Notes under the pieces: generated by a model | The model's database searches: none | The model's input: only the letters and a program-made list of their open reading frames with translations | Told to the model about the DNA's origin: nothing | Position numbers and translations under genes: made by a program | DNA from: an uncultured virus (IMG/VR IMGVR_UViG_3300010356_001334) | Taxonomy: Duplodnaviria > Heunggongvirae > Uroviricota > Caudoviricetes | DNA: 64,000 nt | Direction: 5' to 3' (one strand) | Virus record (IMG/VR): IMGVR_UViG_3300010356_001334 | Shown: one piece after another, positions 15,005 to 64,000 of the stretch | Position numbering within the stretch: position 1 is the stretch's first letter | Layout of the letters: each line of letters begins with the position of its first letter

Positions 15005-15013
15005 GTTTATAAA

Positions 15014-29770: not shown

Positions 29771-29795
29771 TTTAAGCCATGTACATCTTAGTTGA
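29771..29795 (+). promoter_or_regulatory. Candidate phage promoter motif TTTAAGCCATGTACATCTTAGTTGA
   Basis: Recurrent intergenic motif located upstream of ORF 29824. Confidence 0.5.
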
Positions 29796-29823
29796 CTGAA
29801 CGTGGCATCTGTCTGGAGGCAAA

Positions 29824-35798: not shown

Positions 35799-35803
35799 AT
35801 GCA

Positions 35804-49169: not shown

Positions 49170-49543
49170 TAACGTTTATTCTGTTTAGAATAGACAGTGG
49201 TTCTCACTATCGGAAACGGTAGTGTAGTATTCTCTCTAACTGCTGGAAACTCCTAAAGCTGTCTCACCACAAGCATCGCGAAAGCAGATGCTGAAGGTCT
49301 AAAAACGAGACAGATGCGGCATATGCCAAAATGGACAATCAGCAGCCAAGTCCCTAAGGTCATTGACTATGGGAAAGGTTCAACGACCAAGACCTTGTCA
49401 GTCTGTACACTCAAGTGAGTGGAAATGGGAGACACCTTAACACGTCATGGTGAAGGTGAAGATATGGTCTGCTCTTTCAGGGAAAGCCTGAAGCTGCGCG
49501 TGATGGCGCGGGAGGAAGGGTAACGTCTTCCTCTGAACTACGG
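49170..49543 (+). ncRNA. Group I intron 3 (374 nt, no ORF)
   Basis: U|...G boundaries; P AACTGCTGGAAA; Q AATCAGCAGCC; R GGTTCAACGACCA; S AAGATATGGTC; P3 TCTCTC/GGGAGA. Splicing restores MNDN-PKRVMF. Confidence 0.9.
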
Positions 49544-50671: not shown

Positions 50672-50682
50672 TTGACGTATTG

Positions 50683-50721
50683 ACAGGACTAGAGGAGGCA
50701 TTTAGCCTCCTCTAGTCCTGT
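50683..50721. terminator. Palindromic terminator after the RNAP operon
   Basis: ACAGGACTAGAGGAGGC/GCCTCCTCTAGTCCTGT. Confidence 0.85.
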
Positions 50722-50828
50722 GCCGACATGTATAAGAGCCGATATCATTTGAAGAGCTTACTGCGTCTCTATATTTACGAAACGCTTTAATAAAGCTCAT
50801 CTAGACAGCTGGTTTTATTTTTAAGGAG

Positions 50829-51032
50829 ATGGTGATGGAAGGCTTGGTGAATGAAAAAACACATGAAAGTGCTCTGGTTCTGGCTAATGCGGGTGAACTC
50901 ACTGCACTGGTGATCAAGAAAGTGGCTGGTAATGATATTAGCACAGCAGTCAATGGTTCTGTGTTGACGCGTGAGATGATTCAGAATATTCTGTATCGCA
51001 AAATTACTCAATCCATCGCGAACCGTAAATAA
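50829..51032 (+). CDS. Small hypothetical protein
   Basis: AAGGAG upstream; precedes the gp177-like gene. Confidence 0.55.
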   Translation: MVMEGLVNEKTHESALVLANAGELTALVIKKVAGNDISTAVNGSVLTREMIQNILYRKITQSIANRK

Positions 51033-51067
51033 CACAAAATTCATTGTAAGTTTCAAGGAGAGTTATC

Positions 51068-52588
51068 TTGATTAACCAAGCCACATACCTGAACGCCGCC
51101 ACTGTCGCCAAAGAGCTTGCTGATAAGAATATTTATCTTCAAGCGCGTCCTACTTCTGTTCTAGGTGAATTGCTTGATCTGAGCACTTCAGTTCTTGCTG
51201 AAAATAATACAGATCTTCCTCGCATTCTAGTTAACCCGAATACCCCGAATCAAGTCGCACTGCGTTCAGCAGAAGAGCGCGCAAATGCCGTTCAGTATAC
51301 GACCGGTGACTATCATGAACCGAGTCAGCATTCACTAAAATTAATGGCACTTGCTGAAGACTTGGCTCCTTTTATCACAAGCCATATCTCGCACGCACGA
51401 AACACTGTTGCGCCCTTAGTGGTTGATCTGTCGGATAAGCTTCAGAAATATCTGGATACGGCAAAACCGCTTGACCCGGTCTCATTGTTCGAGATTGAGC
51501 AACGTAGTCTGCCTGCTTTGGTTGTGGATGAGTCATTCCAAGCAGACGGTCTTGAAGCTTATGCTGGAACGGATGCCAAGTACCGCTCATTCCCGCATAT
51601 TCTCGATGTCCCTGAAGAAGATAGCTTCTATCAAGACTTGGTGAACTTGGGTAGTAACCGTTTGAATGGTCTGGTTAATGATTGGCTGAAAACGAAAGAC
51701 CCTTCTTTTATCAAAGCGGTCTATATCGTTAATTTCTCCAATCAACTTGACGCACTTCGTACGGTCAATGGTGGGAGCTATGAAGGTCTGTATGCGTTAG
51801 GTGATCCGGGTGTCGGAAATAACCCCTATGATACGCTTGATCTTGCTTTGGCCATTTACCTTATTGGTACACGTTTAATTTCTAACGTAGTTCCGACCAA
51901 GGGTGTGTCTTTGGTGGAATATAAGAGCGCAATGCGGTCAATGATTGATTATGCAGGTGCTCAGATTCATAAGTCCCTCAAGGCCGTTCAGCGTCAACAT
52001 GAAGCGAATGTGCTCGTAACTGAAGCCATTATCAGTAAAAAGAAGATCGTTGTCAACAAGATCATCTATCGTTCTTGGCTTGAGTCGGGTGGTCAACCTG
52101 AAGTACTCTTAGGCATGCTTGCTAGTGGTGAAGTTCATTACGCAGTAGGTGCAATTGAAGAAGCAAAAGAAAAGCTGCTTCGTCAATGGGCAAACTACGT
52201 GATGCTCTCCCAGACCAACATCAAGGCTGAAATGCATAAGCGTTTCCGTGACTACGCTGAAAACGAAGTCATGATGGGTCTGAATGAACTGACTGATCTT
52301 GAAAAAGAATACGCCCAAAACTGCGTAAACTTTAAAGACCGTGTTCAAGCATTAGTCAATGAAGAGATTGAGCATCTGAGCCATCGTTTAATGGATGATG
52401 TTCATCACACGGCTTTGCATCTAATTGCAAAGGCTCGTTTCTTCTATACCTCTGCTTATTCGATTCTGAATGAAATGGCCACTGTAGCAAAAGACAATCC
52501 CAATATTGATCCGCGTGAAGCGGCACTTCTGAGCGTGATCAGTTATGTGGGTGAGTATTTTGAAGAACAGATTGTCTGCGTGAAATGA
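51068..52588 (+). CDS. Virion structural protein (phiKZ gp177-like by synteny)
   Basis: AAGGAG RBS with TTG start; lies between the RNAP beta gene and the protease. Confidence 0.6.
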   Translation: MINQATYLNAATVAKELADKNIYLQARPTSVLGELLDLSTSVLAENNTDLPRILVNPNTPNQVALRSAEERANAVQYTTGDYHEPSQHSLKLMALAEDLAPFITSHISHARNTVAPLVVDLSDKLQKYLDTAKPLDPVSLFEIEQRSLPALVVDESFQADGLEAYAGTDAKYRSFPHILDVPEEDSFYQDLVNLGSNRLNGLVNDWLKTKDPSFIKAVYIVNFSNQLDALRTVNGGSYEGLYALGDPGVGNNPYDTLDLALAIYLIGTRLISNVVPTKGVSLVEYKSAMRSMIDYAGAQIHKSLKAVQRQHEANVLVTEAIISKKKIVVNKIIYRSWLESGGQPEVLLGMLASGEVHYAVGAIEEAKEKLLRQWANYVMLSQTNIKAEMHKRFRDYAENEVMMGLNELTDLEKEYAQNCVNFKDRVQALVNEEIEHLSHRLMDDVHHTALHLIAKARFFYTSAYSILNEMATVAKDNPNIDPREAALLSVISYVGEYFEEQIVCVK

Positions 52589-53304
52589 CAAAACTTGTTC
52601 GTAATGCCGGGAAGGTCTTGAGTCAGCTCATTGATCTTCCCGGTAAACCTGTGATTACCAAGAGCGCACTGTCAATCCAAGTCCCTGTTCGATTTCGAGA
52701 GATCGAGTTGGCTCAAGTCGGTGCCTCTACGTTTGTCTATGGGTTATTTGCTATTATTCTCGATAGTGGTGAATATGCACTGTGTAATGTCAATGCGTAT
52801 GTCGAGCTTGGACCCGCTTCTGTCGAATTAACAACCATTGATGGTGAAGAATACTATAATTTTAAGTATCTTCCCAATCAAGTTGTGATTAAGACAAAAG
52901 ACTTGGTTTGTCGCGCTAACTTAATCTATAAAGCGATTGAAGAGTTTGTCTTTAAAGGCAAGATTCCTTGGTATGTCGATTATGAAGACATGGGGAAAAT
53001 CTTTGATACGGCTAAGCGTCATGCTCGGACCAGTGCAGAGATCATGCCTAGTGTCGTTGAATTTATGGCGGCCTATATTGCCCGTAGTAAAGAAGATCGT
53101 ACTAAGTATATTCGTGAAGTCTCAAAAGACTATAAAGACTATAGCAAAGAAAACCTTGAATGGGTGCCGATGCGTAGTGTTTACTGGTCTTCCCCTGGTA
53201 CTGTCAATAAGCTCGCTGGCGCCTATTTCTCTGATGGTATCGTAAGCGCTTTGGTTAACCCCAGTGAGCGTGTTGAAAAAATTGAACGTATCTTGAGAGC
53301 CTAA
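52585..53304 (+). CDS. Conserved protein (phiKZ gp176-like by synteny)
   Basis: ATGA overlap; GKIPWY and KLAGAYFSDG motifs. Confidence 0.6.
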   Translation: MTKLVRNAGKVLSQLIDLPGKPVITKSALSIQVPVRFREIELAQVGASTFVYGLFAIILDSGEYALCNVNAYVELGPASVELTTIDGEEYYNFKYLPNQVVIKTKDLVCRANLIYKAIEEFVFKGKIPWYVDYEDMGKIFDTAKRHARTSAEIMPSVVEFMAAYIARSKEDRTKYIREVSKDYKDYSKENLEWVPMRSVYWSSPGTVNKLAGAYFSDGIVSALVNPSERVEKIERILRA

Positions 53305-53307
53305 ATC

Positions 53308-54096
53308 ATGTCAAAAGTCTTCTTCTCGGCAACCAAGTTGCCCATGTTAAAAAAGAAAGGGATCATTAAGCCTGATGCCGATGGTTACTATGAATTGGTT
53401 GTTGGGGGTTTAAATACTCACAATAATACCGGTGCGTGGTATTACACCATCGAAGGCGTTCGTGAGCTCTTTGGCCCTGGTAGTCTTTTACATCGCCGGA
53501 TCGCAAACGGTTGTCTGCGTGCTGAAGTGAATCATCCGAAGAAACGTCCTGGCGAAACCGATGAACGTTTCTTTGAACGCATGCTCGACATCGATCGAGA
53601 TAACGTATGTGCTCACTTCAAAGACCTTTGGCTTGATGAGAACTTTGGACGGAATCATCCAGAGTACAATAACCCGCATCTTGTTGCAATGATGGCAAAG
53701 GTAAAGCCTTCAGAGCCCAAAGGTAATATCCTGAAAGAATCTCTTGAGAACCCCAATGAGAACGTTTGCTTTAGCATTCGTGCTTTAGCAGATGAAGGCT
53801 TTTATCAAGGTAAGCGTATTCGGGTCCTTAAAGAAATTATTGCCATTGACCTTGTTAACGAGGGAGGTTTGCTTATTGCCTCCAAGTGGGACAGTCCTGC
53901 CACTGAAAGTATCGGTAACATTACTGAAGACGATTCTTGTGCAGGTGAAGCTATGCGGATTACTCAATCCATGCTGACACGTATTGCAAACGATACTCGT
54001 GTCGGAATGGCAACTGAGTCTTCTCGTGATGCAGTTGAGTTCCTTTCTCAGAAACACTTTAAAACGGCTTCTAAGCCGATCTATGCTAAGTGGTAA
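53308..54096 (+). CDS. Prohead maturation protease (phiKZ gp175-like)
   Basis: GYYELVVGGLN, EVNHP, CFSIR and D.VNE motifs; C-terminal A-T-E candidate autocleavage sites. Confidence 0.8.
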   Translation: MSKVFFSATKLPMLKKKGIIKPDADGYYELVVGGLNTHNNTGAWYYTIEGVRELFGPGSLLHRRIANGCLRAEVNHPKKRPGETDERFFERMLDIDRDNVCAHFKDLWLDENFGRNHPEYNNPHLVAMMAKVKPSEPKGNILKESLENPNENVCFSIRALADEGFYQGKRIRVLKEIIAIDLVNEGGLLIASKWDSPATESIGNITEDDSCAGEAMRITQSMLTRIANDTRVGMATESSRDAVEFLSQKHFKTASKPIYAKW

Positions 54097-54101
54097 GTCC
54101 T

Positions 54102-54135
54102 ACACAGGAAGAGGCTTTACGGCCTCTTCCTGTGT
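54102..54135. terminator. Palindromic terminator
   Basis: ACACAGGAAGAGGC/GCCTCTTCCTGTGT. Confidence 0.8.
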
Positions 54136-54158
54136 GTTCTAATGTCTTCTGAGATCTA

Positions 54159-54184
54159 TTTTAGCAATATAGATCTTAACTGAA
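54159..54184 (+). promoter_or_regulatory. Candidate phage promoter motif TTTTAGCAATATAGATCTTAACTGAA
   Basis: Recurrent motif lying between a terminator and the SLT gene. Confidence 0.5.
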
Positions 54185-54309
54185 CCTGTTTCTGTGGTTT
54201 TTGTTGCACGCTCTTTAAATAGTTTGAGCATTTTCCTTTAACCCCTTTTTCTTTAAAAAGGAGCAGTATCGATCTACGGATCACGCACGACCTTAAAAAG
54301 GAGTTCCTC

Positions 54310-54633
54310 ATGGCACGTTGTTCTATTCGTTTTATTCTAAGTTGTTTTCTGGCTCTTACTACTTTTCATGCATATAGTGCAAGTAAAGTAGAAGCATTAG
54401 AGAAATACATTTCGAGTGCTTGCAAGACGTCTTGTGTCGATCCAAGTCTTTTGTTGCTATCTGTCAACAAGGCATCAGAAGAACTAGATGTAAACCCTGT
54501 GACGCTTTTGGCAATTATAGAAGTCGAGTCGTCCTTCAAGCATAGAGCGCTAAATAAAACCAATGGAAGGAGTGTGGGTTTATCTCAGATCCAAGTAAGA
54601 TGGCATCGAGATAAATTCACAACAACAAACTAC
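54310..54633 (+). pseudogene. Lytic transglycosylase (SLT) gene, N-terminal part, interrupted by a tnpB element
   Basis: Signal-like N-terminus, AIIEVESSF and GLSQI motifs; the frame then runs into the IS left end. Confidence 0.8.
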
Positions 54634-56091
54634 CTCCGAGAGCGTAAAGCTCTGTCCTTCAGGGCGGAGATGTAAGCGAAGTTGTATTGTATAAAACCTA
54701 TATAACCTCTCTAATGAAAGGAGTAGTGTATGACAGAAACATCTAAGCTCCTGAAGAAGGGGTTTAAGTTTCCTATCTATCCGACTGCTGAGCAACAGGA
54801 ACTCATCGAGCGCACTTTCGGCTGCTGTCGTTATGTCTATAACCGCGCTTTGGCCGAGTCTAAAGAAGACTATAAGACTTATGCTGAGTTGTTAGAAAAA
54901 CGACTCATGGATAAACAAGCACGACCCGATGTTTCAAGCTATGGGTTGGTTAATAAGTTGCCACGCTTTAAACGCGATCCAGATAGCACTTGGCTAAGTG
55001 ACGTTTCAGCTGTCGCGCTCCAGCAGAGCCTGCTTCATCTTGGTGCCGCCTATGCACGCTTTTTCAGAACCAAGCAAGGTTTCCCCAGGTTTAAGTGCAA
55101 GCAAGGTCGACAAAGCTTCTCACTGACAAAAGCTGCCTTTAATCTTCAAGAAAGTGGTCTTTGTATTGCTAAATGCATTACACCCATTAAGGTTGTGTAT
55201 AGCCGACCTCTCCCGTCAACACCGTCGAGTTTGACAATTAGTCGTACACCTTCAGGTAAGTACTATGTCTCTTTCATTTGTGAGTACCAACCAACACCAA
55301 CCTCTGGCACACAGGTTACTGGGATCGATGTCGGCCTTAGTCATCTCTTAGTGCTTTCCAACGGCATCAAAGTCGATAACCCACGTCACTATGTAAAAGC
55401 ACAACAGCGTCTCAAGCGTGCCCAGCAAGCCCTCTCTCGTAAACAAAAAGGATCCCGTAATCGCCATAAACAACGTCACAAGGTAGCCAAACTTCACGAA
55501 CATGTCGCTAACTGCCGACGTGATCATCACCATCAGCTCTCTCGAAAGCTCGTCAACGAAAACCAAGTGATCGGTATCGAGGGACTTCAGGTGAAAAACA
55601 TGATCAAGAATCGTCGACTCTCAAAGCACATCACAGATGCAGGTTGGAGAAGCTTCCGAAGCATGCTGGAGTATAAAACAGTCGAAAGCCAGCACACCAC
55701 ACTTGTCGTGATGGACACCTTCTTCCCGAGCAGTCATCTCTGTGCAGCCACAGGCCAAAAGCTTGATCGTAAGCTTCTACTTAGCGAGCGTAGCTGGGAT
55801 TGTCCACACTGCGGCCAGCTTCATGATCGTGATGTGAATGCAGCTCAAGTTATCGCAACTGAAGCACTTTTTGCAGTGAGTCAATACCCTATCGATGTTG
55901 TGCGTGGAAAGATCCTGCTGGCTAATGCACGATCTGCTTAGGGAGAAGGATTTGTCAATAATCAACACCGCGATGACACGCGGTGTCAGCCCATGGAGCG
56001 CTCTTGTGCAGTCAGACATCGCGATGAAGTGGGAAGGGGACTCCGTGAGGACCCTAGGAATCCCTGTCCTTTAGGGCAGGGAGGATGTCAA
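54634..56091 (+). mobile_element. IS200/IS605-family tnpB-only element (left boundary about 54631-54634)
   Basis: Left hairpin AAAG-CTCTGTCC-TTCA-GGGCGGAG; right hairpin GAAT-CCCTGTCC-TTTA-GGGCAGGG ending TCAA; no tnpA. Confidence 0.85.
54730..55941 (+). CDS. tnpB: RNA-guided endonuclease TnpB (element 1)
   Basis: HTH IYPT..Q..FGCCRYVYN; RuvC GIDVG, IEGL and DRDVNAA; C-terminal CPHC. Confidence 0.93.
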   Translation: MTETSKLLKKGFKFPIYPTAEQQELIERTFGCCRYVYNRALAESKEDYKTYAELLEKRLMDKQARPDVSSYGLVNKLPRFKRDPDSTWLSDVSAVALQQSLLHLGAAYARFFRTKQGFPRFKCKQGRQSFSLTKAAFNLQESGLCIAKCITPIKVVYSRPLPSTPSSLTISRTPSGKYYVSFICEYQPTPTSGTQVTGIDVGLSHLLVLSNGIKVDNPRHYVKAQQRLKRAQQALSRKQKGSRNRHKQRHKVAKLHEHVANCRRDHHHQLSRKLVNENQVIGIEGLQVKNMIKNRRLSKHITDAGWRSFRSMLEYKTVESQHTTLVVMDTFFPSSHLCAATGQKLDRKLLLSERSWDCPHCGQLHDRDVNAAQVIATEALFAVSQYPIDVVRGKILLANARSA

Positions 56092-56111
56092 GTTCCTAAA
56101 GTCTTAAAAGC
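55942..56111 (+). ncRNA. Predicted omegaRNA of TnpB 1 (guide GTTCCTAAAGTCTTAAAAGC from 56092)
   Basis: Structured region from the tnpB stop to the right end TCAA; the guide is the 3' flank, as established for TnpB. Confidence 0.65.
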
Positions 56112-56145
56112 GCACAGTCGTATCGCGAACTTGAAACTTCATTAA
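56092..56145 (+). pseudogene. C-terminal remnant of the SLT gene (VPKVLKAHSRIANLKLH*)
   Basis: Y-V-x-K-V is the typical SLT C-terminal helix; in frame with the N-terminal part; followed by a hairpin. Confidence 0.7.
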
Positions 56146-56155
56146 ATGTATTTTA

Positions 56156-56183
56156 AGGTCTAGAGGCTAAAGCCTCTAGACCT
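56156..56183. terminator. Palindromic terminator
   Basis: AGGTCTAGAGGC/GCCTCTAGACCT. Confidence 0.8.
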
Positions 56184-56200
56184 ATGTCTGTTTAAAAAGT

Positions 56201-56225
56201 TTTTTAGTCATATATATCTTACATG
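56201..56225 (+). promoter_or_regulatory. Candidate phage promoter motif upstream of tnpB 2
   Basis: TTTTTAGTCATATATATCTTACATG, similar to the motifs at 29771 and 54159. Confidence 0.5.
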
Positions 56226-56257
56226 CCATTCTTACAGAAACTAAAACCGGAGAAACT

Positions 56258-57460
56258 ATGACTCAAAATCAAAAGCCTCTGGTCAAAGGCTTTAAGTGCC
56301 GTATTTATCCAACAAAAGAACAAAAAGACTATCTTCAAAAAGTCTTTGGTTCTGCTCGGTTTATCTATAACCATCTTTTAGCTGAATTAAAAGATGAATA
56401 TGAAAACTATAAAAAAGACCAAAGCATTCAAAGAACACCAATAAATAAAATATCATTAGCCTATAAACTGCCTTCTTTAAAACAAAAAGAAGAATATCAA
56501 TGGTTAAACGATGCCCCTGCACAAGTTCTTCAACACGCCAGTGGTCAACTTGCAGAAGCCTTTTTAAGATTCTTTAAATCAAAGATTGGATATCCTAGAT
56601 TTAAATCTAAACACGGTCGACAATCTGTAACGTTTAGTAATCAAATCTATTCAATCGATGGCAATAGACTCAAGCTACTAAAATGCAAATCTTTGTTTAA
56701 AGTTAAGCTTCATCGAGCATTACCGTCATCTGGTTTAAAATCATGCACAGTCAGTAAAACTCCAAGTGGAAAGTATTATGCTTCGTTTTTATGTGAGTAT
56801 ATTCCAGAGAAAACATCAGGAACTGGTTTTCTTGGCATTGACGCAGGCATTACTGACTTAGCAACACTTTCAAACGGACTTATTCTTCTAAACCCAAAGC
56901 ACTATGTTAAACAACAATACAGACTAGCGCAACTTTCAAGACGCCTAACTCGTAAACAAAAAGGATCAAAAAATCGAAATAAAGCTCGACTTAAAGTTGC
57001 TAGACTTCATGATCACATAGCTAATCAGCGCTGTGATTACATGCATAAGTTCACGACAAGCGTCATACGCGAAAACCAAGCTGTCGCCATCGAGAACTTG
57101 CAAATTAGAAACATGATCAAAAACAGACGACTCTCTAAACATATTGCTGACGCAGCATGGGGTGAGATGAGACAGCAATTGGCTTATAAAGCTATTGCTA
57201 GTCAAAACTGTCTTCTTGTTATTGCTGATCCGTATTATCCGAGTACTCAACTTTGCCATAGATGTAACACAAAACCAAGTCAGAAAATTAAACTCGGCGT
57301 GACAAAGTGGGTATGTGAATACTGCGGAGAAAAACATCAGCGTGATCATAATGCTTCTTTGAATCTTGAAGTCCTGGCAAGATCTTACTATTATCAGCAA
57401 AAGAGAAATGGAGAAATTGCTAGTATTATTTTAGCCAAACCTTATTCTCCGTTAATTTAG
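56258..57460 (+). CDS. tnpB: RNA-guided endonuclease TnpB (element 2; no IS left-end hairpin seen)
   Basis: RIYPT..Q..FGSARFIYN; RuvC GIDAG, IENL and QRDHNAS; zinc finger CHRC...CEYC; GGAG RBS. Confidence 0.93.
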   Translation: MTQNQKPLVKGFKCRIYPTKEQKDYLQKVFGSARFIYNHLLAELKDEYENYKKDQSIQRTPINKISLAYKLPSLKQKEEYQWLNDAPAQVLQHASGQLAEAFLRFFKSKIGYPRFKSKHGRQSVTFSNQIYSIDGNRLKLLKCKSLFKVKLHRALPSSGLKSCTVSKTPSGKYYASFLCEYIPEKTSGTGFLGIDAGITDLATLSNGLILLNPKHYVKQQYRLAQLSRRLTRKQKGSKNRNKARLKVARLHDHIANQRCDYMHKFTTSVIRENQAVAIENLQIRNMIKNRRLSKHIADAAWGEMRQQLAYKAIASQNCLLVIADPYYPSTQLCHRCNTKPSQKIKLGVTKWVCEYCGEKHQRDHNASLNLEVLARSYYYQQKRNGEIASIILAKPYSPLI

Positions 57461-57473
57461 TTAAGATCTTTAG

Positions 57474-57590
57474 TCAAACTACCGTAGGGTATACGGGAAG
57501 TCAAGCCTGTGGAGAAGATCGTGAAGTAGGCGACTCGATGAAGCAGGAAGATCTGAAGTCTGGACCATACCACATCTTAACTGAATGATA
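57474..57590 (+). ncRNA. Predicted omegaRNA copy 1 (scaffold 57474-57573; guide ATCTTAACTGAATGAT...)
   Basis: TACCGTAGGG..CGGGAAGTCAAGCCTGTGGAG...GATGAAGCAGGAA is typical of tnpB 3' RNA; the terminal CCAC can pair with GTGG (pseudoknot). Confidence 0.75.
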
Positions 57591-57631
57591 CGCTAGTATC
57601 AATTTTAACAAAGCCCTGAAAGGAGAAAATC

Positions 57632-57835
57632 ATGGCTGCTATTCTTATTGTCATCGGATACTTCGCAGTTATCCTGAGTATTACGATGCTGTCGATGAAA
57701 CTGGTCAGGACAAAAATCATTCGAACTTTGTTCATTGGACTGGGTTTGCTCCCAAGTATTCAACTCATTATTCTTGGGGTCTTACTGGTTGAACTATATG
57801 GACAACGCGCTCTTAAAGGAGTTCATCATGAATAA
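57632..57835 (+). CDS. Small membrane protein
   Basis: AAGGAG RBS, two TM segments. Confidence 0.65.
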   Translation: MAAILIVIGYFAVILSITMLSMKLVRTKIIRTLFIGLGLLPSIQLIILGVLLVELYGQRALKGVHHE

Positions 57836-57944
57836 GGTTAAAGCTCTTTGCAAGAATGGCAATGGTCTTGTTCGGTCGGTCCTTCTGATCACCGCTGGTG
57901 TCAGTGTCTGGATGTGGCAAATTGCCACCATCCTTGACAAATAA
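57828..57944 (+). CDS. Small membrane peptide (38 aa)
   Basis: AAGGAG RBS before ATG 57828. Confidence 0.5.
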   Translation: MNKVKALCKNGNGLVRSVLLITAGVSVWMWQIATILDK

Positions 57945-57961
57945 AAAATCATCAAATGTCA

Positions 57962-57996
57962 GGAGAGGTTTTAAACCTCTCCAGCTTTTTCTTTTT
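57962..57996 (+). terminator. Intrinsic terminator
   Basis: GGAGAGGTTT/AAACCTCTCC followed by a T-run. Confidence 0.7.
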
Positions 57997-58009
57997 GAGG
58001 ATTTAATAA

Positions 58010-58186
58010 ATGCCTTCAAAATCAGAGAAACAAAAGAAGTTCATGGCGGCAATTTGCCACGATGAAGAGTTTGCTAAAAAGAACCACATTGATCAAGAAG
58101 TCGCGTGTGAGTTCTTTGAGGCAGACAAACAAGAAGAAAAGAAGAAACAAGAAAGTGTTGTTGAGAAGTGGTCTAAGAAGTCTTAA
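58010..58186 (+). CDS. Small phage protein MPSKSEKQKKFMAA... (58 aa; absent from the ORF track)
   Basis: GAGG RBS; resembles a widespread small phage family MPSxSxKQxxFMAA. Confidence 0.65.
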   Translation: MPSKSEKQKKFMAAICHDEEFAKKNHIDQEVACEFFEADKQEEKKKQESVVEKWSKKS

Positions 58187-58227
58187 AACGCGTTCTGTGC
58201 CATTTTAATTGATCTAAGGGGTCTGTC

Positions 58228-58638
58228 ATGCTCAAAGAGCTTAATAACGCCATTGGTGGCGCCTATGTGGCTTCTCATTGTGTTTCTCGTCGTGTTGATC
58301 TAGCTGGGATTCGATATGTCTCAGCATCTGATCAAGTTTGGCCTTTTAATCCCAAACTCTATGTAGAACCGATTGAAGTCGACAGTATCATCTACACAGG
58401 AGTCTACACTCTCCTTAAAGAAGATGTCGTTGATGAAGATCAATATAAACTTTCAAACTCTGAAGGTCAATATCATCTTGGAACAAAACTGGTGATGTTG
58501 AAAAACGATCTTCATCTTCAGATTTTTGATGGTGAAGATGCTTGGCACGAATTCATTCCGAAAGGAAGTCAGGTTGCTAAAGTGCTTCGAAATGGTCGAG
58601 TATATTGGGCAGTGATCTATGCTCAAATCATCCATTAA
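58228..58638 (+). CDS. Hypothetical protein
   Basis: AAGGGG RBS, 136 aa. Confidence 0.6.
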   Translation: MLKELNNAIGGAYVASHCVSRRVDLAGIRYVSASDQVWPFNPKLYVEPIEVDSIIYTGVYTLLKEDVVDEDQYKLSNSEGQYHLGTKLVMLKNDLHLQIFDGEDAWHEFIPKGSQVAKVLRNGRVYWAVIYAQIIH

Positions 58639-58709
58639 GAGACCCTGCTCTTAGAAAAAAGATAACAGTGTACATCTCTAGTGAGGAAAGCAAGTTATAC
58701 TAGCAATTC

Positions 58710-58826
58710 TCAAACTACCGTAGGGTATACGGGAAGTCAAGCCTGTGGAGAAAATCGTGAAGTAGGCGACTCGATGAAGCAGGAAGATCTGAAGTTTAGA
58801 TCATGCCACATCTCTATTGAACGATG
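58710..58826 (+). ncRNA. Stand-alone omegaRNA copy 2 (scaffold 58710-58809; guide ATCTCTATTGAACGAT...)
   Basis: 95 of 100 nt identical to 57474-57573; no adjacent tnpB. Confidence 0.75.
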
Positions 58827-58955
58827 CTACCACACATCGCTTCAGTTCTTTCTTAAAGAGTGGCTTGAGCTCAACACTTTTTAATGGAAGATTTTCTTAA
58901 CGCAAGTAGTTTCCTGTGGCAATCTGCCATAATACCATAAATGAAGGAGTAATCT

Positions 58956-59408
58956 ATGTCCCGCGCAAAACGTGATGAGAATCTGGTCAACGCCATCGCT
59001 TCGTCGCTGTCCAAGGTAACCGATGGTGTGATCTCGTCGGACGGTGATGTCTTTAACAGCAATCTGCCGGAAGGTCTGACTCCGGAAACGGTTGAAGCAG
59101 TTTCCAACTATACCACGGCTTTCGTTGCCAGTGGTCTGGAAGCGGTTGGTAAGGCCGCAGTGTCTGCCATGGAAAAAGACAAGAAGCTGAATAATGTTTC
59201 GGCTGAAATTCCCATGGGCGCTTTCGGTAGCGTCGGTTACGGTGTAACCCGTAGTCGTGAAGCTGTGGTTCCGGGTACGGACAAGACCACAACGGTCTAT
59301 GGCGGCACCAAGGCAAATGTGGCTTTTGTGGCTGGCAAGAACGCTGGTCAACTGGCTGCTGCTAAGCGCTCTATCAAAGAGATGGCTGAAGAAGCACTGA
59401 AGAAGTAA
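58956..59408 (+). CDS. Conserved, probably highly expressed jumbo-phage protein
   Basis: GAAGGAG RBS and host-like codon bias. Confidence 0.7.
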   Translation: MSRAKRDENLVNAIASSLSKVTDGVISSDGDVFNSNLPEGLTPETVEAVSNYTTAFVASGLEAVGKAAVSAMEKDKKLNNVSAEIPMGAFGSVGYGVTRSREAVVPGTDKTTTVYGGTKANVAFVAGKNAGQLAAAKRSIKEMAEEALKK

Positions 59409-59422
59409 TCTGTTCTGATGAC

Positions 59423-59456
59423 ATAGAGGGAGAGGGCCTAGGCCCTCTCCCTCTGT
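59423..59456. terminator. Bidirectional terminator
   Basis: AGAGGGAGAGGGC/GCCCTCTCCCTCT followed by a T-run. Confidence 0.8.
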
Positions 59457-59471
59457 ATCAGTATTTTTTTT

Positions 59472-60194
59472 TTACCATCGAGCATAAATAGATTTATTTT
59501 CAACTGAAAGGTTTGCAGTTACCAATAGTTTTTCTTTTAAGAAATCTGACTTTGAAATCTCTTTAATTGTAGTTGTTTTATATGTATTCCATGTTGAGTT
59601 ACGATTATAATCAAACGTAATCTCATAATAGCCTGGATTTAAAACATTAACAGAATCAAAGTGAAATCTTTTCTTAATTTCAACTTTGATTGTTATAACG
59701 TATTTTGGTTCTTGATTAATTTGAGGTAATGCTTTTAACTCAGATACATAGAGCTTACCAATTTGCTCTGGGATATATGTTCTGGTGTTTTCATTGTATG
59801 TAACTAGCCAGTGTTCATTACTAGCACGCACATCATAGACTAATCGAGCATTTGGTTTTAATGCATATTCAAAAGAAATTGCATTAATATAAAGTCCACC
59901 TTTCCATCCTTCATTCTTTCCTTGATATCCAGCATCTAAGACATCATAAGGAAGAACAGCATAACCAATGATTGCTCCATATAGGCATGTTGAAGCTGTA
60001 ATCCGTGGTGTTGTTCGGTCTTCCATATTTGCTTGCCTAAATCCAATACGCGGAATATAGACATTAGGACGATCTTTCGTAATATGGATAAGGAAGGGAT
60101 CGGGAAGCTGGTTGGCTGTTACGATGGTGATATTTTTCTGAACTTTATCAGGAAGGCGTTTGATAAAAAATTCAAGTTCTTGAAGAGAAGACAT
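59472..60194 (-). CDS. Putative internal head protein (AT-rich)
   Basis: EDRTTPRI and EHWLV motifs; C-terminal SVE...IYARW tail. Confidence 0.55.
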   Translation of the reverse strand: MSSLQELEFFIKRLPDKVQKNITIVTANQLPDPFLIHITKDRPNVYIPRIGFRQANMEDRTTPRITASTCLYGAIIGYAVLPYDVLDAGYQGKNEGWKGGLYINAISFEYALKPNARLVYDVRASNEHWLVTYNENTRTYIPEQIGKLYVSELKALPQINQEPKYVITIKVEIKKRFHFDSVNVLNPGYYEITFDYNRNSTWNTYKTTTIKEISKSDFLKEKLLVTANLSVENKSIYARW

Positions 60195-60248
60195 TGTTCT
60201 TTAGTCCTAGTGTGCGTTACCACTGGATCTTTCAAATGAACAGTGGGA

Positions 60249-60284
60249 GACACAGGGAGAAGGCGAAAGCCTTCTCCCTGTGTC
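60249..60284. terminator. Terminator after the tail tube gene
   Basis: GACACAGGGAGAAGGC-GAAA-GCCTTCTCCCTGTGTC. Confidence 0.85.
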
Positions 60285-60323
60285 AGCACTAGCTTTCTTT
60301 TTTGGCTTTTAGACCATTAAAGA

Positions 60324-61193
60324 TTAGATCACATTACCTACGCGAGCCTGGGCAATATTCTCAGTCGACTCTTTATACCCTTTTTCAATCGAAGCTACAT
60401 CAGCAGAGATTGACTTAATAAAGGATTCGCGTACCTGTGGTGAACTCCATACTTTATTGATCCCATCGAGCAACTCTTGACCAAACACACGTGTACCTTC
60501 ATTGATAAAGGTCAGCGAGGTCATTTCAACCGAGAGTTCCTTAATCGAAAGCGCAGACGTTTTATCCATCTTGCCTTCAATCGGACCTGTGCCTTGCGGC
60601 CAGACGTTCGTCGAGATCCAGGTGCGGACAACGCGCTTACCCGTCGGATCCGGTTCAATGAAGGCAATTGTGCCACCATACCAGTCGGCCAGGTTATCAG
60701 TCGGACCACCACCTTCGAGCGTCGCTGTCAGCGGGGTCTTGGTCTCAGGATGCATCAGACCATACATAATCCAACGTTCCAGGAAGTTCTGGAAGACGTT
60801 GCCATATTTCTCAACCATATTGATGGTCAGAGTGGAGCGCTCACGCTTGACATCCGTGAACTCCTGGAAGAATTCACCACCACCACCAAACGCGTGTTCC
60901 GCCACTTCAACCGTCAGGCCAGCCTTCAACCCTTCAATGGTACGAGCGTGTTTTTCAATCATCACCTTCCACGCCGTCACCCACTTATCCGGATCAGGCA
61001 TGAATTGGAAGAATTCAGGCGACTCCAGAACGATCGGGATCAGGTTACGCGGAACATAAGCTTGAGCCGAGACCCATTCAGCCGGGTTCGTGGCCCAGCC
61101 AAATTGACCACCCAGCATTGGGTCAAGCTGAGGCATTTCATTGCCAGAAGACCAAGCCTTAGCGCCAAGCAGCGCATCGGTAAGACGTGCCAT
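60324..61193 (-). CDS. Tail tube protein (phiKZ gp30-like)
   Basis: Directly downstream of the sheath; GGQFG...YVPRNLI and FIEPDPT motifs. Confidence 0.8.
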   Translation of the reverse strand: MARLTDALLGAKAWSSGNEMPQLDPMLGGQFGWATNPAEWVSAQAYVPRNLIPIVLESPEFFQFMPDPDKWVTAWKVMIEKHARTIEGLKAGLTVEVAEHAFGGGGEFFQEFTDVKRERSTLTINMVEKYGNVFQNFLERWIMYGLMHPETKTPLTATLEGGGPTDNLADWYGGTIAFIEPDPTGKRVVRTWISTNVWPQGTGPIEGKMDKTSALSIKELSVEMTSLTFINEGTRVFGQELLDGINKVWSSPQVRESFIKSISADVASIEKGYKESTENIAQARVGNVI

Positions 61194-61224
61194 GTTTATT
61201 TACTCCTTAAATGTAGAAGAGGGA

Positions 61225-63303
61225 TTACTCGCCCGCGTAGTCTTCGATACGACGAGCGACCACGTAAGTCGTCATCACCGTCTTCATACCCGCAGCCCAG
61301 ATATCGATCGGCAGCGTCCAGGAGTAGTTACGCACTTCATCCAGACTGGTGAAATAAGCGCGCGGACGAATCACAAAGCGATCGTCAAACTTACCACGGA
61401 CTTGCTCACTCACGAAGTCATTCACACGCTTAGTGAACTGAGCAGGCGTCAGACCCGAGATACCAGAGAAGGTACGATGCGCCTTGTGAGCAATCTTGTT
61501 CAGCTGAATGATAGCGCAAGCTGTCAGATAGCTCGTCAGGACCGAGGTATCGTCGCCATAGACCGTCTTGATTGCCGGGAAGACATAGCTGGTGCGATCA
61601 TAGCGGGTAACCCAGTTCAGACCCACATCCCAGTTACGGTTACGCACGTTATCAGGCGTCCAACGGATCGACAGGTCATACTGTTCTTCAACCAGCGAAC
61701 CAGGGAAGCCATCGAAGTTACGACCATTCTTCCAGATGCCGTTCCCAGCACCCATATAACGCGCCGACTTCACACCCAGTTCATAGGTCAGCGGGACCGG
61801 ATTGACGATCTGACTGGCACGAATACGACCCACGCAACCTTGGATCAGGGCACGGAAGACCGGTGTACCAAAATAGGTCGATTCAGGATGCAGTGACAGA
61901 CGCGATTGCAGCGCAGCAGCAACCGAATACTCTTCAGCAGCCGTCAGAACGCGCTCACCATACTCCGAAGGCGACAGGACCACGAAGGTGTCCTTACGGT
62001 TCGAGATAAACGAGATCAGGTCATATTTGGTCTCGAGCGGGAAACCCGTGTCGTAGATATGACTTTCAACGTGATAAGCGATGTCGTTCAGTTCATCATT
62101 CTCGTTGGCGTAGCGCTTCATGTACTCCGAGACGAGTTGAGCGTGCAGTTCATGCGACATCGTACCGTCACTACCGCCACCGGCATAGACGTTGGTCGAT
62201 TGCGAGAACCGAACTGCGTCATCCGAATCTGTAAAGATGTAGCTGTGGTAAGGAACGTTTTGCGAAGTCGTACCGGTCACAAAGTTAAAGAGGTGCTTAT
62301 CTTCAACATCAGCCGTAAAGTCCGAATCATCATTCAAGAACGGCACTTCGGCTGCTTGGAACTGAGCCAGCAGCAGATCAATGTTCTCTTGATAAACCTT
62401 CACACGACCAAATTCACCATACTGCTTCGCGTAGCGCGGATCCTTCAGACTCTGGTAGTCTTCAATCGCACGTTCACCAAAATACAGGCGAGAAGTCGTC
62501 AGCGGATCAACCACTTCCGGCTTGAAGCTCACCATGATCTGCTGTTCGCCAAAGGTGGATTCCACCATCTTCGCCGAACCCGTTGCTGCGTTCTTACGAA
62601 TCACAGCCATCATGTACGGATAAACCTTCTCACGCGCCATCAGTTTGGTAGGCAGTGCTGATTGGTTATCTGCATTGATCGACCACAGACGGATACCGGC
62701 CAGGTTACCGTCCTTACCAATGAACGAATGCTCCAGTTCAAAGATCGGATAACGCTGCGACTGAACGCTCGTTGCCGGATCAACTTGGTCACCAACAACA
62801 ATACCAGCCGCACCAAAGGTTTCAGCCAGCGCATGGGTATCCAGATGCTGAACCACAAACTTGACACGGTGACCCGCGGCCTGACCCGTGATGATTGGAT
62901 CACCTGCTACGTCAGTCTTAATCGAACCGTCGCTATTGCGCTGATAGATATCAACTTGAGTCGGGAGCACATCCAGATAGACACGCAGCGTGGGCTTCGG
63001 ACCTGCATCCACCGGGATCATACGGACATACATTGCCGCATTGCCTTCCGCATTCACGCCATTGGAATGAAGAGTCTGGTGGTTGAAATACTCACTACGC
63101 TCAGTGAACGTTTCTTCACCATACATCTGAAGACGTTCATTGCCCACCAGGAGTTCTTCCGTGGTCGGACCCTTCTGGGCATAGATAAAGTACTTCGGCA
63201 GATGCTGTGGAAGCTCCTCGGGAGCGCGGCCATAGGGCCGGGTGCTCAGATCCTGGACGCCATAGTCAACAACTCCCGGCGCGCCATTAATGATGGTTTT
63301 CAT
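61225..63303 (-). CDS. Contractile tail sheath protein (phiKZ gp29-like)
   Basis: NGAPG...PQHLP, GGSDG, YDTGFPLETK and PESTYFGTP motifs; 692 aa. Confidence 0.88.
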   Translation of the reverse strand: MKTIINGAPGVVDYGVQDLSTRPYGRAPEELPQHLPKYFIYAQKGPTTEELLVGNERLQMYGEETFTERSEYFNHQTLHSNGVNAEGNAAMYVRMIPVDAGPKPTLRVYLDVLPTQVDIYQRNSDGSIKTDVAGDPIITGQAAGHRVKFVVQHLDTHALAETFGAAGIVVGDQVDPATSVQSQRYPIFELEHSFIGKDGNLAGIRLWSINADNQSALPTKLMAREKVYPYMMAVIRKNAATGSAKMVESTFGEQQIMVSFKPEVVDPLTTSRLYFGERAIEDYQSLKDPRYAKQYGEFGRVKVYQENIDLLLAQFQAAEVPFLNDDSDFTADVEDKHLFNFVTGTTSQNVPYHSYIFTDSDDAVRFSQSTNVYAGGGSDGTMSHELHAQLVSEYMKRYANENDELNDIAYHVESHIYDTGFPLETKYDLISFISNRKDTFVVLSPSEYGERVLTAAEEYSVAAALQSRLSLHPESTYFGTPVFRALIQGCVGRIRASQIVNPVPLTYELGVKSARYMGAGNGIWKNGRNFDGFPGSLVEEQYDLSIRWTPDNVRNRNWDVGLNWVTRYDRTSYVFPAIKTVYGDDTSVLTSYLTACAIIQLNKIAHKAHRTFSGISGLTPAQFTKRVNDFVSEQVRGKFDDRFVIRPRAYFTSLDEVRNYSWTLPIDIWAAGMKTVMTTYVVARRIEDYAGE

Positions 63304-63341
63304 GTGTCAAATCCTCTCTTTAGAAGAAGTGGAGAAAAAGA

Positions 63342-64000
63342 ATGCCTCTGTTCAAAACGAGTTACGATACAACGGTGGGTAAGATCTTCGATATGAAGAA
63401 ACTAGATCTTTCCCTGAAAGAAGCTTTGATCACCGGGAGTCTCGGTTATCGGCGGCTTGGGGTAGAAAAGATCGATCAATGCGCTGCTGTCTTTGTGATT
63501 GGAGGGCCTGATGAAAACAACATTCCTCCTTTTATCCACCCCTACCTTATTCAGAACTATAAAGGTCAGAATTATTTAATTTCTGATCTTCGTTTATTCC
63601 GTCCAAATTCACGAGAGTTTTTGACCGAGCGTGAGTTTGAACTGAATGTTCGGAATAAGACAGAATATGGACTTTCTAAGAGTCGTGCTGTCCTGAATCT
63701 GCTTTGGCTCTCGGACTCAGTTTCAAGTCTTCGTACTCGCTTCTCCTTTGCAGGTTCAGTGTTTGCCACTTGGTTAAGTCAAGCTATTGCCAGAGCATAC
63801 GCTTTAGATTTCCAAGAACAAATGAAAGTAACAGCTGTAGGAATGTACTATTACTACAGCCTTTTCACCACAGAGACTCGCCTCACCGATAGTGCGCTTG
63901 AAACAGCAGTCATCCATACCATTAAGACGACAAAAATCCCTGCATCTGAAGTCTATTCTTTATTTGAAGGCTTAGGTGAGATTAAGGGGATTGAAGACTA
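63342..64000 (+). CDS. Virion structural protein (phiKZ gp28-like by synteny), 3'-truncated by the window edge
   Basis: GGAG RBS; MPLFKTSYDTT...IPPFIHP; frame open to the end of the window. Confidence 0.7.
   Translation, partial: MPLFKTSYDTTVGKIFDMKKLDLSLKEALITGSLGYRRLGVEKIDQCAAVFVIGGPDENNIPPFIHPYLIQNYKGQNYLISDLRLFRPNSREFLTEREFELNVRNKTEYGLSKSRAVLNLLWLSDSVSSLRTRFSFAGSVFATWLSQAIARAYALDFQEQMKVTAVGMYYYYSLFTTETRLTDSALETAVIHTIKTTKIPASEVYSLFEGLGEIKGIED

What the first reader, a model, noticed from the sequence alone, without database searches (positions are those of the whole stretch)
58662..58838. Stand-alone omegaRNA cassette bracketed by a duplicated promoter-like motif
Seen: scaffold copy 2 is flanked by near-direct repeats ACATCTCTAGTGA (58672-84) and ACATCTCTATTGA (58808-20). 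The scaffold's own 3' end (TTTAGATCATGCCAC) resembles the upstream half of the motif (TTTAAGCCATGTAC, TTTAGTCATATAT). In both copies a hairpin starts 12 nt into the guide (TGATAC-GCTA-GTATCA; CGATG-N8-CATCG). Inference: the upstream motif transcribes the guide RNA, while the scaffold end plus guide rebuilds a promoter for the downstream gene. The cassette could therefore insert into promoters at little cost. The hairpins may set guide length.
Basis: partly seen in the sequence, partly recalled or inferred. Interest (0 to 1): 0.75.

Follow-up and report, generated by a model that had tools for sequence, protein, structure and literature searches.

The report
Protein-less TnpB guide-RNA cassette in phage
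A 136-base, gene-less second copy of a transposon nuclease's guide-RNA scaffold sits in a promoter-like site of a giant phage; it probably gives that nuclease a second target and is a phage example of a kind already described in bacteria.

Summary
Window 58710-58809 is a second copy of the omegaRNA scaffold that follows the TnpB gene at 56258-57460. The first 86 nt are 98.8% identical; the 116-nt repeat is 92% identical. It carries no protein. A 13-mer stands on both sides of it (12/13 alike here, 13/13 in a related phage).

The window is a phiKZ-like jumbo phage from sludge metagenomes. A relative about 92% identical lacks both TnpB genes at this locus but keeps the cassette at 98.4% identity, while its flanks are 70-87% identical. 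One metagenome contig skips exactly the 136 nt between the two 13-mers, leaving a single-motif allele. This evidence is weak: one contig with a 21-nt side. RNA-library contigs cover the cassette.

The 13-mer belongs to a rare intergenic motif (CATRTAY-ATCT-TA-TGAA). The motif also lies upstream of three tnpB ORFs and of several phage genes, so the promoter reading is plausible but unproven. The hairpins are weak. At the TnpB site, the only one with an intact empty allele to read, the hairpin belongs to the target.

Best reading (0.55): a stand-alone omegaRNA used in trans by TnpB to cut cassette-less genomes during co-infection, so the cassette homes. Stand-alone omegaRNAs are already in print, so this is a new member of a known kind.

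The parts
58672..58684 (+). Left copy of the flanking 13-mer (ACATCTCTAGTGA), part of the promoter-like motif GTGTAC-ATCT-CTA-GTGA. It is the candidate promoter of the cassette RNA and holds an 11-13 nt match to the cassette's own guide.
   Evidence: Exact 13/13 repeat in L002.
58685..58709 (+). 25-nt leader of the cassette. It is unlike the left end of the TnpB element and holds an inverted 15/17 match to the tnpB 3' coding end (57415-57431).
   Evidence: (I8), (shuffle P 0.0175; a hint only).
58710..58809 (+). OmegaRNA scaffold copy 2, stand-alone. The last 14 nt differ from copy 1 at 4 positions, and 3 of these strengthen a terminal hairpin (GATCTGA-AGT-TTAGATC).
   Evidence: 2 differences in 125 nt against L002.
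58742..58785 (+). Scaffold core with a sub-threshold match to Rfam RAGATH-18. The closing stem and the GGAG/CGAUGAA loop are kept; the apical part is shorter.
   Evidence: 27.1 bits, gathering score 44.9.
58810..58829 (+). Presumed guide 2 (16-20 nt). It overlaps the right copy of the 13-mer (58808-58820). High conservation against L002 ends at 58829.
   Evidence: Whether the scaffold/guide border lies before or after ATCT is not resolved.
58822..58839 (+). Hairpin CGATG-N8-CATCG. L002 has CGATGC-TAAC-GCATTG at the same place.
56258..57460 (+). TnpB2, 400 aa, the likely protein partner. The RuvC D/E/D motifs are present.
57474..57573 (+). OmegaRNA scaffold copy 1, which lies wholly downstream of the tnpB2 stop codon.
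57574..57601 (+). Guide 1 and the target hairpin (TGATAC-GCTA-GTATCA, 57586-57601). This DNA is contiguous with the left flank in the empty allele.
56203..56221 (+). Left junction of the TnpB2 element: the motif's upstream half TTTAGTCATATAT plus ATCTTA. The ATCTTA is repeated at 57574-57579.
   Evidence: X4 joint 56215->57574, 6 ambiguous letters.
54165..54186 (+). Another motif instance (AATATAGATCTTAACTGAACC), upstream of the transglycosylase gene. It matches the first 12 nt of guide 1.
   Evidence: (D13).
29771..29801 (+). Another motif instance (TTTAAGCCATGTACATCTTAGTTGACTGAAC), in a divergent intergenic region upstream of the + strand gene at 29824.
54694..54718 (+). Motif variant (CCTATATAACCTCTCTAATGA) 13 nt upstream of the TnpB1 start codon, inside the TnpB1 element.
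   Evidence: A counterpart lies upstream of the G001 orthologue.
58956..59408 (+). Downstream 150-aa gene of unknown function. Its leader contains the cassette. It shows the highest contig depth of the stretch in both RNA libraries.

Best explanation
The cassette (about 58672-58829) is a protein-less, non-autonomous derivative of the TnpB2 insertion element. It consists of the omegaRNA scaffold, a new flank that serves as guide, and a short unrelated leader.

It sits inside a promoter-like motif in the leader of a highly expressed phage gene. Inferred steps follow.
1. The RNA is transcribed on the + strand, probably from the left motif copy or by read-through.
2. It is bound in trans by TnpB2, whose own scaffold is 98.8% identical over the 86-nt core.
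3. During co-infection the complex cuts phage genomes that carry the uninterrupted site (left flank plus ATCTCTA[G/T]TGAACGATGC).
4. Recombinational repair from the cassette-bearing genome copies the 136 nt in. The cassette is thus a guide-only homing element that rides on TnpB2.

Shown: homology, absence of a gene, an intact nuclease next door, presence/absence alleles, and local conservation. Inferred: transcription start, loading, TAM compatibility, cutting and homing.
For: - Scaffold homology: 116 nt at 92%, with an 86-nt core at 98.8%.
- No conserved ORF. The 67-aa frame over the cassette is cut to 49 aa in L002.
- TnpB2 is full length. It aligns over 10-371 with ISDra2 TnpB structures (E 2.5e-67) and keeps the GIDAG / IENL / RDHNA motifs.
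- The TnpB2 element is itself a clean insertion with an empty allele in L002 and in X4, so the flank after the scaffold is target DNA, that is, the guide.
- The relative L002 keeps the cassette with 2 differences in 125 nt. The upstream gene has 52/411, the upstream spacer 9/30, the downstream spacer 24/123 and the downstream gene 60/453. The conserved island runs about 58664-58829 and ends 16-20 nt after the scaffold.
- One X4 contig joins 58671 to 58808, skipping 136 nt. Another X4 contig stops at 58680, which I read as a fork in the assembly graph; the tool does not say so.
- An RNA-library contig (X19, depth 24.3, 2 other letters) spans 58725-58951.
- Three of the four substitutions in the scaffold's last 14 nt turn mismatches or wobbles of a terminal hairpin into Watson-Crick pairs.
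- Stand-alone omegaRNAs that work in trans are documented (PMC10691335, passage read, citing Altae-Tran 2021). PATEs encoding omegaRNAs are noted in bioRxiv 10.1101/2023.03.14.532601 (passages read).
Against: - No transcription start or RNA end is established. The RNA evidence is contigs from libraries that may contain DNA, and depth cannot rank genes.
- The cassette-less allele rests on 1 contig in 1 of 2 DNA runs laid. Its side is 21 nt, below the tool's own caution line of 30, at min_likeness 88. It could equally be a deletion between the two 13-mers.
- The left flanks of the two sites differ (..CATATAT vs ..GTGTAC), so one TAM may not serve both.
- If ATCT belongs to the scaffold, the flank and the scaffold end share AYATCT. 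That would predict self-targeting.
- The cassette lacks any sequence upstream of 57474 of the parent, which a full scaffold might need.
- In G001 (27% complete) no TnpB2 was found, so there the cassette may be an orphan.
- 21% of 314 160-nt windows in the window-L002 alignment are at least as conserved as the cassette. The two genomes are mosaics, so the island could be a recombination patch.
Confidence: 0.55

Rival explanations
1. Inert fossil. The cassette is the leftover right end of a decayed or rearranged TnpB2-type copy, or a small ectopic duplication. It has no present function. Its conservation reflects recent shared ancestry or a recombination patch.
For: - The leader 58685-58709 looks like a rearrangement scar: an inverted 15/17 match to the tnpB2 3' end, P 0.0175.
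- No left-end homology was found.
- G001 shows no TnpB2 in the 73 kb held.
- 100%-identical blocks elsewhere show that mosaic exchange is common.
- The single-motif allele may be a deletion between the 13-mers.
Against: - The island of 98.4% identity is flanked on both sides by 70-87% identity. Its edges coincide with the motif and with 16-20 nt of guide.
- The changes in the terminal stem improve pairing instead of degrading it.
- The core is 98.8% identical to the working copy.
- RNA-library contigs cover it.
Confidence: 0.25
2. Regulatory module. The cassette was kept because it supplies or modulates expression of the downstream 150-aa gene. It could do so through a rebuilt promoter or 5' leader. 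Alternatively, TnpB-omegaRNA-2 could bind without cutting at the partial match in the left motif copy (11-13 nt next to the native left flank) and so repress its own promoter. This would be a TldR-like use of a still-active TnpB.
For: - The motif lies upstream of three tnpB ORFs and several genes.
- The scaffold-2 end matches the upstream-half consensus TTTAG.CAT..AY better than the native left flank does.
- The downstream gene shows the highest contig depth in both RNA libraries.
- Guide 2 matches the left junction at 12/13 positions (window) or 13/13 (L002).
- Guide-length-dependent switching between binding and cutting is reported for a TnpB (PMC13507860, abstract in a search listing only).
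Against: - The promoter function of the motif is untested, and the motif is rare.
- TnpB2 keeps its catalytic residues, unlike TldR.
- The cassette-less allele evidently exists, so the gene does not need the cassette.
Confidence: 0.12
3. Promoter-cassette shuffling. The unit moved by recombination between repeated 'promoter plus stem-loop' motifs, as described for T4-type phages, and not by any TnpB or TnpA activity. The scaffold was a passenger.
For: - Direct repeats of the motif bracket the unit, each followed about 12 nt later by a small hairpin.
- The motif recurs at several loci.
- The comparison with T4 PeSL cassettes is recalled, not read here.
Against: - Only the right copy is followed by the conserved hairpin.
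- The TnpB2 element has only a 6-nt repeat.
- The model does not explain the conservation of the scaffold.
Confidence: 0.08

Closest known systems
Stand-alone omegaRNAs of OMEGA (TnpB/IscB) systems (Altae-Tran et al. 2021, as summarised in PMC10691335, passage read)
   Same: A mobilised scaffold plus a new guide, without effector or transposase, in the same genome as a compatible effector locus. Such RNAs are reported to work in trans and to add target sites.
   Different: Here it lies in a lytic jumbo-phage genome, embedded in a promoter-like motif with 13-nt direct repeats. It shows a natural presence/absence polymorphism and is retained in a relative that lacks the neighbouring TnpB. Its function was not tested here.
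PATEs (palindrome-associated transposable elements) derived from IS200/IS605 (Meers et al., bioRxiv 10.1101/2023.03.14.532601, passages read)
   Same: A gene-less miniature of an IS element that encodes an omegaRNA and depends on proteins encoded elsewhere.
   Different: PATEs keep both the left-end and right-end palindromes recognised by TnpA. This cassette shows no homology to the left end of the TnpB2 element, and I saw no matching pair of subterminal palindromes when reading the sequence.
RAGATH-18-derived reRNAs of IS607 TnpB (PMC11061315, passages read)
   Same: The guide RNA lies wholly downstream of the ORF. The closing stem and conserved loop letters of RAGATH-18 are present in both scaffold copies.
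   Different: The score is below Rfam's threshold (27.1 vs 44.9). The apical 46 positions are replaced by 19 nt. Only about 24-28 nt separate the motif from the guide, against about 50. The protein scores higher with the IS200/IS605 model. The flanks do not carry the AGGAG/GAGGG TAM.
Free-standing homing endonucleases and transposon 'non-restorative homing' between co-infecting phages (review PMC13565253, passages read)
   Same: The proposed logic is the same: cut the allele that lacks the element in a co-infecting genome, then copy the element in by repair.
   Different: Here the mobile unit would carry only the specificity (the guide), not the nuclease.
TldR, phage-encoded nuclease-dead TnpB-like repressors (PMC10705468, abstract in a search listing)
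   Same: An RNA guide encoded next to a phage promoter region, with possible binding at a promoter.
   Different: TnpB2 keeps the RuvC D/E/D residues. There is no evidence of repression here.

Membership tests
Stand-alone omegaRNA (OMEGA/TnpB) | Sequence homologous to the right-end scaffold of an effector-linked element in the same genome | tested here: met
   116 nt at 92%, with an 86-nt core at 98.8%. Only these 2 copies occur in the window.
Stand-alone omegaRNA (OMEGA/TnpB) | No effector or transposase gene within the unit | tested here: met
   The unit is 136 nt. The overlapping 67-aa frame has no family match and is truncated to 49 aa in L002.
Stand-alone omegaRNA (OMEGA/TnpB) | Its own guide, i.e. 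a flank different from the parent's | tested here: met
   The first 20 nt after the scaffold differ at 6 positions (ATCTCTATTGAACGATGCTA vs ATCTTAACTGAATGATACGC). The partial likeness reflects the shared motif.
Stand-alone omegaRNA (OMEGA/TnpB) | A compatible, catalytically intact effector in the same genome | tested here: met
   TnpB2 lies 1.25 kb upstream. Pfam and NCBIfam identify it as TnpB, and the D/E/D motifs align with ISDra2 TnpB. The ISDra2 residue numbers are recalled.
Stand-alone omegaRNA (OMEGA/TnpB) | Evidence of mobilisation (presence/absence at the site) | tested here: inconclusive
   One contig in X4 skips 58672-58807. It is a single contig with a 21-nt side, and a deletion between the repeats is not excluded.
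Stand-alone omegaRNA (OMEGA/TnpB) | Expressed and loaded in trans; guides cleavage | not testable with these tools
   The only data are RNA-library contigs covering 58725-58951.
PATE (IS200/IS605 miniature) | Both left-end and right-end subterminal palindromes of the parent element | tested here: not met
   No match of the TnpB2 left end (56216-56257) outside itself. The leader 58685-58709 is unrelated, apart from an inverted 15/17 match to the ORF end. The TnpB1 element, by contrast, shows paired hairpins.
RAGATH-18 reRNA / IS607 TnpB | Rfam RF03064 at or above the gathering score | tested here: not met
   27.1 and 26.6 bits against 44.9.
RAGATH-18 reRNA / IS607 TnpB | IS607-type TnpB protein | tested here: not met
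   IS200_TnpB 342.8 bits against IS607_TnpB 182.9 bits; both are below their cut-offs.
RAGATH-18 reRNA / IS607 TnpB | TAM AGGAG or GAGGG at the left flank | tested here: not met
   The left flanks read ..GTCATATAT and ..CAGTGTAC.
Jumbo-phage promoter | A conserved motif recurring upstream of genes, in their orientation | tested here: inconclusive
   About 6 independent intergenic instances in the window and G001. The core is rare: 10 matches, 4 of them called intergenic, with 8-9% of the DNA intergenic.
Jumbo-phage promoter | Transcripts start at a fixed distance from the motif | not testable with these tools
   Contigs cannot show starts. Adapter letters abut contig ends at 57598, 58725 and 58845, which is at best a hint of fragment ends.

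The most novel reading that the evidence does not exclude
A 136-bp 'guide-only gene drive'. The cassette carries nothing but specificity. It borrows TnpB2 in trans to cut cassette-less phages in mixed infections and copies itself in. It can live in a promoter because it keeps the upstream half of the motif for its own transcription and offers a motif-like scaffold end to the downstream gene. The native left flank plus an 11-13-nt seed match to its own guide, retained at its left junction, would let the same complex bind there without cutting and throttle the cassette's promoter. The result would be a self-regulating, protein-less selfish element inside a jumbo phage.
Probability: 0.2. Interest if true: 0.7.

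Novelty: new member of a known kind. Interest (0 to 1): 0.45.

Why it matters
The biological role of stand-alone omegaRNAs is still described as unknown (PMC10691335, passage read). A lytic phage is a simple setting for asking that question. Both partners lie within 2.6 kb, a relative keeps the RNA without the neighbouring nuclease gene, and wild populations seem to hold alleles with and without both the cassette and the TnpB element. That makes a direct test possible: does a guide alone behave as a homing element between co-infecting viruses? It also shows how TnpB elements may sit in phage regulatory DNA without silencing the gene behind them. For annotation, it warns that TnpB guide RNAs can occur away from any tnpB gene.

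Tried and rejected
Searches that found no useful relatives.
- GenBank phage collection: no DNA match for 54000-60000 (megablast) or 57400-59000 (blastn). No tblastn match for the 150-aa neighbour. TnpB2 finds 423 records, all below 60% identity, best 41.5%.
- No whole genome is held for the window.
- Earlier findings of this scan: nothing by place or by sequence.
- IMG/VR scan with TnpB2 alone: none.
- Scans with an alignment of TnpB2 and 15 relatives: the 80 kept viral loci are at most 46% identical, and the 80 kept genome loci mostly at most 41%, with short partial matches up to 49%. These are too distant to define the scaffold border, so I did not use them further.
- Scaffold 22-mer in species genomes: 0 matches.
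- Scaffold 22-mer in JGI metagenomes: only two contigs 99.9% identical to the window.
- Closer TnpB2 relatives (95%, 86%, 67%) exist only in ENA/Logan sources, whose contigs could not be fetched.

Ideas tested and not supported.
- The motif sites are fossil right ends. Not supported: scaffold vs the upstream 110 nt of 7 sites gives P 0.078-0.89.
- The hairpins are terminators. None was called at either site. Sigma-70-like sites number 11 against 7.8 expected, and none lies on the + strand at the motif.
- The scaffold folds better than chance. It does not: z scores are +0.37 to -1.52.
- The motif is the phage's general promoter. Rejected: it is rare.

Read-laying results that are not evidence. 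RNA depth bins with little or no cover (for example X20 at 58623-58823) are not evidence of absence. Of the 24 runs listed, from 16 studies, 4 were laid. The many runs that hold about 0.4 of the words were not resolved, apart from X4.

Full report
**What the window is.** Pfam identifies three phiKZ-type virion genes: an S80 prohead protease (53308-54096), a phiKZ gp29-type tail sheath (61225-63303, minus strand) and a tail tube (60324-61193, minus strand). Rfam finds two group I introns, at 47339 and 49170. Many intergenic regions carry strong hairpins followed by TATG. That is the shape of phiKZ late promoters as described in PMC7598289 (passages read). The window is therefore a phiKZ-like jumbo phage. 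Near-identical DNA occurs in activated-sludge and wastewater metagenomes. Nothing similar is in the GenBank phage collection.

**The locus.** Two TnpB genes stand in tandem: TnpB1 (54730-55941) and TnpB2 (56258-57460). They are 46% identical, and both match the IS200/IS605 TnpB models. TnpB2 aligns along its whole length with the solved ISDra2 TnpB and keeps the three RuvC acidic motifs. Directly after its stop codon lies a 100-nt scaffold (57474-57573).

**Checking the observation.**
- A second scaffold copy lies at 58710-58809. The whole repeat is 116 nt at 92% identity. The first 86 nt are 98.8% identical.
- There are only these two copies in the window.
- The 13-mers ACATCTCTAGTGA (58672-58684) and ACATCTCTATTGA (58808-58820) flank the second copy. 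The degenerate motif is over-represented: 6 matches against 0.79 expected.
- One JGI metagenome contig 99.9% identical to the window holds both scaffold copies 1236 nt apart; a second contig of that identity begins inside copy 2. The arrangement is not an assembly artefact.
- The 67-aa frame over the cassette has no family match and is truncated in the relative. The unit is non-coding.

**A relative gives the element borders.** IMG/VR contig IMGVR_UViG_3300029935_000002 (L002/G001; 73 kb, 27% complete) is about 92% identical to window 50291-64000.
- It lacks window 56222-57573. It reads ...TTTTCAGTCATATAT-ATCTTA-ACTGAACGATACGC without interruption. In the window, ATCTTA stands at both junctions, 56216-56221 and 57574-57579. 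The TnpB2 element is therefore a discrete insertion, and the DNA after the scaffold is target, which makes it the guide.
- It also lacks the TnpB1 element. In the window that element replaces 129 nt of a 168-aa transglycosylase gene that is intact in L002.
- It keeps the stand-alone cassette, and there the two 13-mers are identical.
- The only TnpB in its 73 kb is a TnpB1 orthologue at another locus. Only one scaffold-2-type copy is present.

**Conservation.** Against L002, the cassette proper has 2 differences in 125 nt. The gene upstream has 52/411, the spacer upstream 9/30, the spacer downstream 24/123 and the gene downstream 60/453. The conserved island runs from about 58664 to 58829. It spans the left motif, the leader, the scaffold, and 16-20 nt beyond the scaffold. 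As a caution, the two genomes are mosaics with 100%-identical blocks elsewhere, and 21% of 314 160-nt windows are at least as conserved.

**Population data.** Of 24 runs from 16 studies that hold part of 56100-59500, I laid four.
- DNA run X4 has a contig joining 56215 to 57574. It skips 1358 nt, with 6 ambiguous letters and a 58-nt side. This is the TnpB2 empty site.
- X4 also has a contig joining 58671 to 58808. It skips 136 nt, with 9 ambiguous letters, a 21-nt side and depth 10.8.
- Another X4 contig ends at 58680, which I read as a fork in the assembly graph there; the tool does not say so.
- This is one contig, below the tool's 30-nt caution line. A deletion between the 13-mers would give the same allele.
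- X4 and X19 also hold a TnpB2-type element with a different left context. It is roughly 95% identical by my count (54 other letters in 1293 in X4; about 92% over 382 nt in X19). X4 holds a scaffold end followed by unlike letters after ...ACATCT. Both suggest further copies.
- RNA-library contigs cover the cassette. X19 has a contig spanning 58725-58951 at depth 24.3. Both RNA libraries cover the 150-aa gene at the highest depth of the stretch.
- Illumina adapter letters (recognised from memory) abut contig ends at 57598, 58725 and 58845. This is a hint of fragment ends, no more.

**The motif.**
- Besides the two cassette flanks, related sequences lie at four other places:
  - 54165-54186, upstream of the transglycosylase gene;
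  - 29771-29801, upstream of the gene at 29824;
  - the uninterrupted TnpB2 site;
  - a further G001 locus about 100 nt before a ribosome-binding site and ATG.
- Variants lie 13-36 nt upstream of all three tnpB start codons.
- All instances are intergenic and co-oriented with the gene behind them.
- This fits a promoter or operator. It also makes sense of an element that inserts so that the upstream half of the motif drives it.
- The motif is rare, however, and no start site is known.
- The scaffold-2 end resembles the upstream half over about 15 nt only. Scaffold 1 does so less, and longer similarity is absent.

**The hairpins.** Small stems start at position 13 after the scaffold in all four site versions, with different loops in the window and in L002. 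They are weak. They are not called as terminators. At site 1 the hairpin is present in the empty allele, so it belongs to the target locus and not to the element.

**RNA family.** Both scaffold copies give a sub-threshold match to RAGATH-18: 27 bits against a gathering score of 44.9. The closing stem and the conserved GGAG/CGAUGAA letters are present, and the apex is shorter. RAGATH-18-derived RNAs guide IS607 TnpBs and lie wholly outside the ORF (PMC11061315, passages read). Here the position outside the ORF agrees. The protein type, the TAM and the score do not. The TnpB1 right end gives a sub-threshold HgcC match of 30 bits against a gathering score of 50.

**Open points.**
- Whether ATCT ends the scaffold or starts the guide. 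All three right ends seen share it, and so do all three left flanks.
- Why the first 6 nt (TnpB2 element) or 11-13 nt (cassette) of the target are repeated at the left junction. Classical IS200/IS605 insertion makes no duplication. Recombination between motif copies, or integration at a shared core, would.
- Where the 25-nt leader came from. It has an inverted 15/17 match to the tnpB2 3' end, P 0.0175.

**Verdict.**
- The cassette is best read as a stand-alone omegaRNA that TnpB2 uses in trans, probably homing into cassette-less phages (confidence 0.55).
- An inert remnant is the main rival (0.25).
- Stand-alone omegaRNAs acting in trans, and gene-less IS miniatures encoding omegaRNAs, are already in print (PMC10691335; bioRxiv 10.1101/2023.03.14.532601; passages read). 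Homing between co-infecting phages is already part of the conceptual scheme (PMC13565253, passages read).
- My searches turned up no description of such a cassette in a phage. That is not proof of absence.

Noticed in passing
window 54634-56091 (TnpB1 element), with L002 4344-4472: The TnpB1 element has IS605-type paired subterminal hairpins (CTGTCCTTCAGGGCGG at the left, CCCTGTCCTTTAGGGCAGGG at the right) and ends ..TGTCAA. It interrupts a transglycosylase gene and replaces 129 nt (43 codons) that are present in the relative, whose gene is intact at 168 aa. Its orthologue in G001 sits at a different locus with an identical right end.
   Followed up: partly
window 57455-57467 vs 57574-57586: The 13 nt just after the tnpB2 stop codon (ATTTAGTTAAGAT) are complementary at 12/13 positions to the start of guide 1. 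The predicted fold of the precursor pairs them. This could be an 'anti-guide' that masks guide 1 in the unprocessed transcript. It could also be chance.
   Followed up: no
window 57574-57593 vs L002 4597-4616: Guide 1 of the window phage differs from the empty site of the relative at one position (T vs C, position 13 counted from ATCT). This could be an escape change at the target of the TnpB2 element.
   Followed up: no
window 47339-47750 and 49170-49493: Two group I introns (Rfam, 57 and 82 bits) separate three long ORFs (44902-47262, 47745-49172, 49556-50671) that have no Pfam match. This is probably one split gene of the phage.
   Followed up: partly
window, many intergenic regions (e.g. 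56156-56190, 14975-15005, 35770-35800, 59419-59460): Strong GC-rich hairpins are immediately followed by TATG. This resembles terminator plus late-promoter pairs of phiKZ-like phages. One lies just upstream of the TnpB2 insertion site.
   Followed up: no
window 55972-56104: The TnpB1 right end gives a sub-threshold match to Rfam HgcC (30 bits, gathering score 50, E 3.7e-4).
   Followed up: no
runs X4 and X19, left of window 56210: A TnpB2-type element, roughly 92-96% identical by my count (54 other letters in 1293 in X4; 31 in 382 in X19), has a different left context (...GACCTGATATGGTA) but the same 12 nt ATATATATCTTA before its left end. About 15 further runs hold only about 0.4 of the words of 56100-59500, roughly the share that the TnpB2 element makes up. 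The element may therefore be more widespread than this phage.
   Followed up: partly
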